Virus record (IMG/VR): IMGVR_UViG_2579778797_000013
Strand: one strand, 5' to 3'
Source of the DNA: a virus
Taxonomy: Duplodnaviria > Heunggongvirae > Uroviricota > Caudoviricetes
DNA: 5,458 nucleotides
The notes below the pieces were generated by a model, which did not search any database, was not told where the DNA came from, and saw only the letters and a list, made by a program, of their open reading frames with translations. A program made the position numbers and the translations under genes. Positions 899 through 1,336 of this stretch are shown here, in pieces; positions within the stretch are counted from its first letter, which is position 1; each line of letters starts with the position of its first letter.

Positions 899-1336
899 GT
901 AATTTCTTTGTATACAAAAAAAGCAACCCTCTCAGACGCACTCCAGATACACTAAAGAAAATCTGATAACTGGCTGCTTCCTGTCAGCTTATTCCAGGAT
1001 TATTCGCAAAAATGAATATAAACTTTTTAGGAATTATCGTACTGTACAGTCGGTGATATCCGTCATCCCCGCCATTATTCACGCTCCACACCGCATGCTG
1101 TCGTTTCGCTTATTTCCCTCACGCACTTATGACACAGTTCCTTACGCTTAATAATGTGACAAGCACCACATTCTGATTTTTTTTCGATGCATTAATAATA
1201 TTAATCGTTTTCTGACATACCGTTGCCATCCGCGTTCCGGAGCGTGTGACAGGCATCACTGAATATGCCTGGCGGTTATTGCAGAATCTGTTTCACAATA
1301 AAAAAACGATTGCTGTAATCCTCTGTTGACGAAAGA
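899..1336 (-). promoter_or_regulatory. AT-rich non-coding leader / putative promoter region for the adhesin-like gene (promoter hexamers not resolved)
   Basis: About 440 bp with no convincing ORF on either strand (longest plus-strand ATG ORFs I translated are 14-18 codons). It lies between a terminator and the adhesin start. It contains two ATTAAT hexamers spaced by 3 bp (1191-1205), a T8 run (1177-1184) and a 7-bp inverted repeat CAGGCAT-N8-ATGCCTG (1250-1271). I could not find a convincing -35/-10 pair by eye. Confidence 0.3.

What the first reader, a model, noticed from the sequence alone, without database searches (positions are those of the whole stretch)
899..1336. Long AT-rich leader with palindromic elements upstream of the adhesin-like gene
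About 440 bp without a credible ORF separate the late-operon terminator from the adhesin start. The region contains two palindromic ATTAAT hexamers spaced by 3 bp (1191-1205) next to a T8 run (1177-1184), and a 7-bp inverted repeat CAGGCAT-N8-ATGCCTG (1250-1271). This is what one expects for an independently regulated, possibly H-NS-silenced, horizontally acquired gene with a dedicated regulator-binding site. I could not assign promoter hexamers with confidence.
Basis: seen in the sequence. Interest (0 to 1): 0.4.

Follow-up and report, generated by a model that had tools for sequence, protein, structure and literature searches.

The report
Upstream region of prophage eib adhesin

Summary
All genes in the window are on the minus strand: J, a collagen-like tail fibre, tfa (DUF4376), then an Eib-type YadA-family adhesin starting at 886. 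The interval 887-1380 travels with the eib cassette, not with the tail genes. It has three parts. (1) A stable hairpin right after tfa (1337-1356), whose clean T8 tail lies on the plus strand. (3) A ~180-nt proximal block (887-1064), the only part shared with the published P-EibA locus and a third eib class. The 7-bp inverted repeat is at chance level (P=0.37). The T8 run and ATTAAT pair are only nominally unusual. All three motifs mutate at the background rate among 10 near-identical copies and are absent upstream of other eib classes. No sigma-70 promoter can be assigned. The sense strand is nominally depleted of such sites, which fits an activator-dependent gene, as published work reports. 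Independent regulation of a horizontally acquired gene is supported by context and literature. The specific binding-site reading is not. H-NS involvement is untestable here. Ordinary; low interest.

The parts
884..886 (-). Start codon of the Eib-type YadA-family adhesin gene, which runs off the left edge of the window
   Evidence: frame check. The full-length copy in L032, 99-100% identical across the eib part, has a YadA_anchor domain and an EibD-like stalk.
895..898 (-). Shine-Dalgarno AGGA, 8 nt upstream of the ATG
   Evidence: Seen in sequence. It aligns with AGGG in class 2.
887..1064 (-). Conserved proximal eib control region or leader. This is the only part of the interval homologous to other eib locus classes.
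   Evidence: 70-74% identical to P-EibA-type loci and 51-59% to class 3. Homology starts abruptly at about 1060-1064.
907..918 (.). Perfect 12-bp palindrome TTTGTATACAAA. Its core TTTGTATACA is invariant between classes 1 and 2.
   Evidence: It is read in three different frames in the three classes, so the conservation is at nucleotide level.
954..968 (-). Invariant U-rich block ATCAGATTTTCTTTA. It forms the 5' arm and loop of a predicted hairpin (H2).
   Evidence: There is conservation but no two-sided covariation.
998..1038 (-). Imperfect inverted repeat H1 (GATAATTCCTAAAAA ... TTTTTGCGAATAATC). It is the counterpart of the 'stem_loop' annotated upstream of eibA in AF151091.
   Evidence: It is weak in the window (-5.1 kcal/mol, z -1.5). 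Class 2 has a perfect 11-bp repeat, and class 3 has 9+5 bp with a different right arm.
1041..1046 (-). -10-like hexamer TACAGT (TATAGT in class 2, TACACT in class 3) at the same aligned position, about -150 from the ATG. Candidate weak, activator-dependent promoter (inferred).
   Evidence: No variation among 10 class-1 copies. The -35 is poor in all classes.
1049..1060 (-). GATATCACCGAC box, invariant between classes 1 and 2 and absent from class 3. It marks the distal edge of inter-class homology.
1065..1336 (.). Class-specific spacer 'X1', non-coding, unrelated to the spacers of class 2 (520-640 bp) and class 3 (about 230 bp). It always co-occurs with the class-1 leader.
   Evidence: No excess RNA structure on the sense strand (z -0.37). 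ISEc12 is inserted at about 1272-1277 in strain SCU-171.
1177..1205 (.).
   Evidence: Present. Nominal P of 0.04-0.06. Mutated in 3-5 of 10 copies. Not found upstream of class 2 or 3 eib genes.
1250..1271 (.).
   Evidence: Present. Chance level, P=0.37. One arm is mutated in SCU-171. Found only in class 1.
1337..1366 (.). GC-rich hairpin (1337-1356) immediately 3' of tfa. The T8 tail is on the plus strand and a weak UCUUUCGU tail is on the minus strand. Probable bidirectional intrinsic terminator.
   Evidence: -18.4 and -20.1 kcal/mol; 0 of 200 shuffles fold as well. Analogous hairpins with a plus-strand T-run follow tfa in class 2 and in the eib-less phage 1720a-02.
1368..1940 (-). tfa (DUF4376 tail-fibre assembly gene, the 'orf-191' type). 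Its 3' half is the shared recombination anchor, and homology with other classes ends at about 1380.

Best explanation
The interval is the non-coding upstream part of an eib 'moron' cassette. The cassette sits at the end of the late (tail) operon of a lambdoid prophage, and the interval is a three-part mosaic.

(1) A very stable hairpin lies directly after tfa (1337-1366). It is a strong terminator for plus-strand (antisense) transcription and at best a leaky one for the late operon. It most likely derives from a bidirectional terminator between convergent units.

(2) A ~270-bp spacer (1065-1336) is peculiar to this class of eib cassette. They are most likely incidental features of moderately AT-rich, unconstrained DNA.

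(3) A ~180-nt proximal block (887-1064) is shared with other eib loci and carries the real candidate cis-elements: the GATATCACCGAC box, a -10-like TACAGT, a degenerate inverted repeat, a U-rich invariant block, a 12-bp palindrome and the SD.

Inferred mechanism:
- In the lysogen, eib is transcribed at a low basal level from a weak, activator-dependent promoter in or at the distal edge of the conserved block. My best guess is the TACAGT at 1041-1046, which would give a ~150-nt 5' UTR.
- Expression is raised by IbrAB and by static growth at 37 C, as published.
- During prophage induction, Q-antiterminated late transcription would additionally read through the hairpin into eib.

Shown here: the module boundaries, the conservation pattern, the motif statistics and the absence of a consensus promoter. 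Inferred: the promoter position, the activator target and the read-through.
For: Context and family. Annotated homologues: P-EibA, GER2 and NCTC9112.

Cassette behaviour:
- The tail genes are 93-98.5% identical to class-2 loci up to window ~1380. The DNA is then unrelated until ~1064.
- Leader class and spacer type are perfectly linked (15/15, 56/56, 4/4), while tfa alleles assort independently.
- The eib-less phage 1720a-02 has the same tfa type, and its homology ends at the same point.
- Within class 1, 887-1380 is 96-99% identical in 11 of 11 loci. The tfa 3' half is 87-92% identical, and the passenger region is undetectable in 9 of 11.

Motifs not constrained.

Conserved proximal blocks.

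No sigma-70 promoter:
- The consensus scan finds 0 sites.
- The best sense-strand PWM score is 5.6, against a shuffle mean of 7.9. P(shuffle <= observed) = 0.027.
- A TAYAST -10-like element recurs at -143 to -150 in all three classes.

[quoted passage not shown] IbrAB activates eib (PMC7649339, citing Sandt et al. 2002).
Against: - The whole interval, spacer included, is an island of near-identity. In class 2 the low-diversity zone reaches ~350 nt upstream of the ATG. By analogy, part of the spacer, including 1177-1205, could be functional in class 1. Near-identity cannot separate constraint from recent common ancestry.
- The proposed -10 has no acceptable -35 and scores below shuffle expectation.
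- In the window's own class the inverted repeat H1 is degenerate.
- No transcript data were available. The original Sandt and Hill papers could not be read, so their content is cited second-hand or from memory.
Confidence: 0.55

Rival explanations
1. The ATTAAT pair with T8 (1177-1205) and the 1250-1271 inverted repeat are binding sites for a dedicated regulator or an H-NS nucleation site. They control a promoter located in the distal spacer, giving a 5' leader of 300 nt or more.
For: - The spacer always travels with the class-1 eib cassette and is 96-99% identical in all copies.
- The class-2 low-diversity zone extends ~350 nt upstream of the ATG.
- The ATTAAT pair has a nominal P of ~0.04.
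- The region is below the genome-average GC.
- eib genes are regulated in lysogens (PMC4352079; PMC7649339).
Against: - The motifs are absent upstream of class 2 and 3 eib genes.
- They mutate at the background rate, 4/37 against 25/235. T8 is broken in 5 of 10 copies and the second ATTAAT in 3 of 10.
- The inverted repeat is at chance level.
- No promoter-like hexamers lie nearby on the sense strand.
- The H-NS motif is not enriched.
- The sense-strand RNA of the spacer shows no excess structure.
Confidence: 0.15
2. There is no promoter of its own. eib is expressed only by read-through of late-operon transcripts across the leaky hairpin, and the interval is just a 3' UTR or intercistronic spacer.
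For: - The sense strand is depleted of sigma-70-like sites.
- The minus-strand tail of the hairpin is U-poor.
- Q-modified polymerase ignores terminators (established lambda biology).
Against: - EibG mRNA and protein respond reversibly to growth conditions in uninduced wild-type strains (PMC4352079).
- IbrAB activates eib in lysogens (PMC7649339, citing Sandt 2002).
- The proximal block is conserved across three otherwise unrelated upstream regions.
- Class 2 has a reasonable proximal promoter, TTGAAC-17-GATAAT.
Confidence: 0.1
3. The spacer encodes a plus-strand small RNA or antisense transcript that ends at the T8 terminator (1337-1366). It would be either ~200 nt from ATGACA-17-TAATGT (1129-1157) or ~40 nt from TTCACA-16-TGcTGTAAT (1292-1319).
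For: - The clean T8 tail is on the plus strand.
- The best promoter-like sites in the interval are on the plus strand.
- The plus-strand fold has z = -2.2.
- Class 2 spacers carry three plus-strand terminator-like hairpins, against 0.8 expected.
Against: - The plus-strand promoter score equals shuffle expectation (P=0.30).
- There is no Rfam match.
- Much of the z-score is contributed by the terminator hairpin itself.
- The same kind of plus-oriented hairpin follows tfa in the eib-less phage 1720a-02. There it simply separates convergent tfa and dinI-like genes.
Confidence: 0.1
4. The conserved proximal block acts as an RNA leader that masks the ribosome-binding site (thermometer or riboregulator), or through a leader peptide.
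For: - RNAalifold proposes a helix pairing the U-rich block with the SD/AUG region, with no broken pairs.
- EibG is down-regulated at lower temperature (PMC4352079).
- Classes 2 and 3 have an SD-preceded uORF of 22-25 codons.
Against: - SD..AUG accessibility is no lower than with shuffled leaders in class 1 (fraction 0.56) or class 2 (0.63), and shows no temperature trend.
- All changes in the helix are one-sided.
- The window's class lacks the uORF start codon.
- The TTTGTATACA block is read in three different frames across the classes.
Confidence: 0.07

Closest known systems
eib loci of E. coli ECOR-9 prophages (P-EibA AF151091, P-EibC, P-EibD, P-EibE; Sandt and Hill 2000)
   Same: - Same position: immediately downstream of the DUF4376/'orf-191' tail-fibre assembly gene of a lambdoid prophage.
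- A long unannotated gap before the adhesin gene: 480 bp here, 681-807 bp there.
- The last ~180 nt before the ATG are homologous (70-74%), including the site of the annotated stem_loop.
- The tail genes are 93% identical.
   Different: - The distal spacer is completely unrelated (X1 versus X2).
- The inverted repeat is degenerate here.
- There is no proximal TTGAAC-17-GATAAT promoter and no uORF start codon.
- The passenger domain differs: at most ~60% identity to phage-borne homologues over the N-terminal 295 aa.
Phage 'morons': extra gene cassettes in lambdoid and HK97-like phages, expressed from the prophage (Juhala/Hendrix concept; from my own knowledge)
   Same: - It is a discrete extra segment at the end of the late operon, with sharp homology boundaries.
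- It is absent from a related phage (1720a-02).
- The gene product is a host-fitness or virulence factor expressed in lysogens (literature).
   Different: - The textbook moron carries a recognisable sigma-70 promoter and its own terminator. No promoter can be recognised here.
- The upstream hairpin is oriented mainly against antisense transcription.
H-NS-silenced, activator-relieved horizontally acquired adhesin or virulence genes (general xenogeneic-silencing model; from my own knowledge)
   Same: - GC is below the genome average: 40.6% in the interval and 31% in the 5' coding region.
- Basal expression is poor, and the gene depends on an accessory activator (IbrAB) and on temperature (PMC4352079; PMC7649339).
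   Different: - There is no direct evidence of H-NS binding.
- The recalled nucleation motif is not enriched.

Membership tests
eib (Eib/YadA-family adhesin) prophage locus | The downstream gene encodes a trimeric autotransporter with a YadA-like C-terminal anchor | tested here: met
   The anchor lies outside the window. The copy in L032, 99-100% identical over window 1-886, has PF03895 YadA_anchor (E=1e-15) and matches the EibD stalk 2XZR and the YadA anchor 2LME.
eib (Eib/YadA-family adhesin) prophage locus | Located directly downstream of the tail-fibre assembly gene (orf-191/DUF4376) of a lambdoid prophage | tested here: met
eib (Eib/YadA-family adhesin) prophage locus | The upstream non-coding region is homologous to that of the published eib genes | tested here: met
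   This holds only for the proximal ~180 nt (70-74%). The distal 300 nt are unrelated.
eib (Eib/YadA-family adhesin) prophage locus | The protein binds immunoglobulin non-immunologically | not testable with these tools
   This needs binding assays. The passenger domain differs from the named Eib proteins.
Phage moron | A discrete segment with sharp boundaries, present in some phages and absent in close relatives | tested here: met
   The boundary lies at window ~1380. Phage 1720a-02 has this tfa type but no eib cassette.
Phage moron | Own promoter upstream of the gene | tested here: inconclusive
   There is no consensus sigma-70 site. Only a weak conserved -10-like TAYAST is present. Literature implies independent expression.
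Phage moron | Own terminator downstream of the gene | not tested
   It lies outside the window. P-EibA has an annotated stem_loop after eibA.
Rho-independent terminator (hairpin 1337-1366) | A GC-rich stem-loop followed by a U-run on the transcribed strand | tested here: met
   Met fully on the plus strand (8-bp stem, T8). On the minus (late-operon) strand the tail is only UCUUUCGU.
   The inverted repeat has P=0.37 and the ATTAAT pair a nominal P of 0.036. The motifs vary at the background rate and are absent from class 2 and 3 upstream regions.
H-NS-bound or silenced region | AT-rich relative to the genome, with high-affinity nucleation motifs; ChIP occupancy | tested here: inconclusive
   GC is 40.6%. 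A motif recalled from memory (TCGATAAATT) gives 4 matches in the window at up to 2 mismatches, against 3.5 expected. No ChIP data are available.
RBS-masking RNA leader or RNA thermometer | SD/AUG sequestered more than expected, with temperature-dependent opening and covariation | tested here: not met
   fractions 0.56 and 0.63 against shuffled leaders, with no temperature trend; one-sided changes only.
Any Rfam family | A covariance-model match within 887-1367 | tested here: not met
   No match at E<=1 in the interval or in class-2 loci.

The most novel reading that the evidence does not exclude
The near-invariant non-coding island upstream of eib is the cis-acting target of the IbrA/IbrB pair. 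The candidate elements are the GATATCACCGAC box, the inverted repeat and the 12-bp palindrome TTTGTATACAAA, which persist across otherwise unrelated upstream regions. From memory, the pair is a ParB-like protein plus a PAPS-reductase-like protein. This would be an unusual way of switching on prophage cargo genes that lack a normal promoter, possibly by counter-silencing. Under this reading, the sense-strand depletion of sigma-70-like sites would be a selected feature that keeps the adhesin off without the activator.
Probability: 0.12. Interest if true: 0.55.

Novelty: new member of a known kind. Interest (0 to 1): 0.22.

Why it matters
Eib adhesins mediate immunoglobulin binding, serum resistance and chain-like adherence in commensal and Shiga-toxigenic E. 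coli. Their cis-regulatory DNA has never been defined.

The practical value of this analysis is to redirect experiments away from the eye-catching palindromes at 1177-1271. Better targets are the ~180 nt next to the gene, which are conserved across three eib locus classes, and the tfa-proximal hairpin. It also provides natural test material: three unrelated spacers, an IS insertion and an eib-less relative.

As a discovery it is modest. It is a variant upstream region of an already described prophage cargo locus.

Tried and rejected
- **Rfam**, window at E<=1 plus two class-2 loci: nothing in the interval.
- **Small ORFs** in the interval: no Pfam hits. ORF A is not maintained as coding, and the ORF annotated in GER2 exists only because of a 1-nt deletion in the T-run.
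- **Leader peptide (uORF)**: real in classes 2 and 3, but there is no start codon in the window's class and the frame is not conserved.
- **RBS-masking or thermometer leader**: not supported.
- **H-NS nucleation motif**: not enriched.
- **Sigma-70 promoter**: none by consensus scan or PWM scan on the sense strand.
- **Covariation for hairpins H1 and H2**: only two to three effective lineages. The H2 5' arm is invariant and the H1 right arm is not homologous between classes, so no valid covariation test was possible.
- **Genome-contig scan** with the GATATCACCGAC probe: only chance hits in unrelated taxa. Three metagenome hits (L039-L041) were also chance matches.
- **Origin of the spacer**: no similarity to anything except class-1 eib loci in E. 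coli genomes and phages.
- **Original Sandt and Hill papers**: not held in the library.

Full report
**What is in the window.** All genes are on the minus strand:
- the C-terminal part of tail-tip protein J (3703-5439);
- a tail fibre with collagen repeats (1954-3333);
- a DUF4376 tail-fibre assembly gene, tfa (1368-1940);
- after a gap, a gene starting at ATG 886-884 that runs off the left edge.

Near-identical copies of that last gene are annotated as YadA-family adhesins. A copy 99-100% identical over the window's part has a YadA membrane anchor and an EibD-like stalk. A sub-segment of the gap matches prophage P-EibA of E. coli ECOR-9 (AF151091), just upstream of eibA, where the depositors annotated a stem-loop. 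The finding therefore concerns the upstream region of an eib (E. coli immunoglobulin-binding protein) type prophage cargo gene.

**Checking the observation.**
- T8 at 1177-1184;
- ATTAAT-AAT-ATTAAT at 1191-1205;
- CAGGCAT-N8-ATGCCTG at 1250-1271;
- a GC-rich hairpin at 1337-1356, 11 nt from the tfa stop codon.

No credible gene lies in the gap. Pfam finds nothing in the three longest ORFs. PGAP annotates nothing there in the class-1 RefSeq loci inspected. The longest ORF (46 codons, GTG start) accumulates almost only non-synonymous changes and is frameshifted in phage GER2. The 38-codon ORF annotated in GER2 exists only because of a 1-nt deletion in the T-run.

'AT-rich' is only moderately true. 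The interval is 40.6% GC, and the AT-richest DNA (31% GC) is in the adhesin coding region.

Against 2000 dinucleotide shuffles:
- the 7-bp inverted repeat is at chance level (0.58 expected, P=0.37);
- the T8 run has P=0.055;
- the palindromic hexamer pair has P=0.036.

These are post-hoc tests without multiple-testing correction.

The hairpin is very stable on both strands (-18.4 and -20.1 kcal/mol), but its clean T8 tail is on the plus strand. On the late-operon strand the tail is only UCUUUCGU.

**Module structure.** I collected about 75 eib-type loci from E. coli genomes, phage records, IMG/VR and metagenomes. Three classes of upstream region emerged:

| Class | Loci | tfa-to-eib gap |
|---|---|---|
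| 1 | 15, including the window | 480 bp |
| 2 | 56 or more, including P-EibA | 681-807 bp |
| 3 | 4 | about 400 bp |

Only the last ~180 nt before the ATG (window 887-1064) are homologous between classes. Identity is 70-74% between classes 1 and 2, and 51-59% to class 3. Homology begins abruptly at an invariant GATATCACCGAC box (window 1049-1060).

The tail genes tell a different story. Window 1380-4662 is 98.5% identical to a class-2 locus (L011), and window 1381-3360 is 93% identical to P-EibA. That homology stops at ~1380, four codons before the tfa stop.

Spacer type and leader class are perfectly linked (15/15, 56/56, 4/4), whereas tfa alleles assort independently.

Phage 1720a-02 carries this tfa type but no eib. 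Homology again ends at ~1381, and tfa is followed by a similar G5...C5 hairpin with a plus-strand T-run, ~270 bp, and a convergent dinI-like gene.

So 887-1380 belongs to a discrete eib cassette, a moron in phage terminology, with its joint at the 3' end of tfa.

Within class 1 the non-coding interval is 96-99% identical in 11 of 11 loci. The tfa 3' half is only 87-92% identical, and the adhesin passenger region has no detectable similarity in 9 of 11. The interval is thus an island of near-identity between recombining flanks. This cannot separate constraint from recent common origin.

The evidence is against function:
- They are not found upstream of any class 2 or 3 eib gene. The only other occurrences of the ATTAAT pair are inside eib coding sequence.
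- Among 10 class-1 copies the T8 run reads T6GT in five and has a deletion in one. The second ATTAAT reads ATTAAC in three. One arm of the inverted repeat is mutated in one.
- Motif positions vary at the same rate as the rest of the spacer (4/37 against 25/235) and as the leader (22/178).
- In strain SCU-171 an ISEc12 element sits at ~1272-1277.
- As sense-strand RNA the spacer shows no excess structure (z = -0.37).
- An H-NS nucleation motif recalled from memory is not enriched.

I conclude that the motifs are most likely incidental.

One caveat remains. In class 2 the low-diversity zone reaches ~350 nt upstream of the ATG. By analogy, part of the class-1 spacer, including 1177-1205, could matter.

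**Where the regulatory information probably is.** The conserved proximal block contains, reading the eib strand:
- the GATATCACCGAC box (1060-1049);
- a -10-like TACAGT (1046-1041). It is TATAGT in class 2 and TACACT in class 3, at the same aligned position, -143 to -150 from the ATG. It does not vary in class 1;
- an inverted repeat, H1 (1038-998). It is a perfect 11-bp repeat in class 2, the annotated stem-loop. It is 9+5 bp in class 3 with a non-homologous right arm. It is degenerate in the window;
- an invariant U-rich block, ATCAGATTTTCTTTA (968-954);
- a perfect 12-bp palindrome, TTTGTATACAAA (918-907);
- the SD, AGGA.

No sigma-70 promoter can be assigned. The consensus scan gives 0 sites. 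The best sense-strand PWM score (5.6) is lower than in 97% of shuffles. Only class 2 has a reasonable proximal promoter, TTGAAC-17-GATAAT.

This fits published biology. [quoted passage not shown] Its mRNA is reversibly regulated by static growth, oxygen, pH and temperature without prophage induction (PMC4352079). Eib expression is enhanced by IbrAB (PMC7649339, citing Sandt et al. 2002). I could not read the original papers.

**Mechanism I commit to (confidence 0.55 overall).**
- Basal transcription in the lysogen comes from a weak, activator-dependent promoter at the distal edge of the conserved block. My best guess is TACAGT at 1041-1046, which would give a ~150-nt 5' UTR.
- Expression is raised by IbrAB and by environmental signals.
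- After induction, Q-antiterminated late transcripts additionally read through the leaky hairpin.

The architecture is shown. The promoter position (about 0.35), the activator target and the read-through are inferred.

**Ideas tested and dropped.**
- RNAalifold suggested a helix pairing the U-rich block with the SD/AUG region. All changes are one-sided. Predicted SD/AUG accessibility is no lower than with shuffled leaders and does not depend on temperature.
- Classes 2 and 3 carry an SD-preceded uORF of 22-25 codons (M..HQIFFI..). The window's class has CTGACA where they have CTCATG. The three classes also read the TTTGTATACA block in three different frames, so the conservation is at nucleotide level.
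- A plus-strand sRNA ending at the T8 terminator is not excluded. Its promoter scores equal chance, Rfam finds nothing, and the eib-less phage shows the simpler explanation: a bidirectional terminator between convergent units.

**Verdict.** The general idea of an independently regulated, horizontally acquired gene is right and already known for eib loci. What is new is limited to a second and a third class of eib upstream region, and the delimitation of a ~180-nt conserved control block. Interest is low (0.22). Novelty: new member of a known kind.

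Noticed in passing
window 3403-3651, minus strand (gap between J stop at 3703 and fibre gene start at 3333): There is a sub-threshold Rfam 'sok' match (32.5 bits against a gathering score of 59; E=1.3e-4) at 3492-3651. It is followed by a 27-codon ORF (3403-3486, GTG start, MICITVVLIIWITHRSLCEFRFRIAPF). As far as I recall Hok sequences, the ORF's C-terminal half resembles Hok toxins (..LTRKSLCEIRYR..). This looks like a decayed hok/sok-type toxin-antitoxin remnant, sitting where lambda and P-EibA carry lom.
   Followed up: partly
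L001, L005 (class 2) and L034 (class 3), 88 to 13 nt upstream of the eib ATG; homologous to window ~900-985: Class 2 and 3 eib leaders contain an SD-preceded upstream ORF. In class 2 it is AGGAG-N7-ATG with 25 codons, MRAARHQIFFIYPMLSCFICIQIIL, ending 13 nt before the eib ATG and overlapping its SD. In class 3 it has 22 codons, MGAEIHQIFFIHPMYFGLFVYK. The window's class has lost the ATG (CTGACA in place of CTCATG).
   Followed up: partly
L028 (E. coli SCU-171) 3392-5972, corresponding to window ~1272-1277: An ISEc12 (IS21-family) element is inserted in the class-specific spacer between tfa and eib. It is a natural experiment on whether sequences distal to ~1275 are needed for Eib expression.
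   Followed up: partly
L005 3482-3503, 3653-3670 and 3782-3799 (class 2 spacer); L094 ~1840-1870 (phage 1720a-02): Terminator-like GC hairpins downstream of tfa have their T-runs on the strand antisense to the late operon. Class 2 spacers have three of them (5 terminator-like sites found against 0.8 expected), and the eib-less phage has one. Class 3 instead appears, by eye, to have a sense-oriented hairpin plus T-run after tfa (sequence printed).
   Followed up: partly
L003 (E. coli NCTC9112) 2562-3093: Beyond the eib cassette there is a truncated second copy of the tfa 3' end with its downstream DNA, 90% identical to phage 1720a-02. It abuts a truncated dinI-like gene. This suggests past recombination or tandem prophage remnants at the tfa 3' anchor.
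   Followed up: no
window 1-886 compared with class-1 loci: The adhesin passenger region (window ~1-800) has no detectable DNA similarity in 9 of 11 loci whose upstream 500 bp are 96-99% identical. Eib passenger domains are being swapped behind a fixed upstream region and signal-peptide start.
   Followed up: partly
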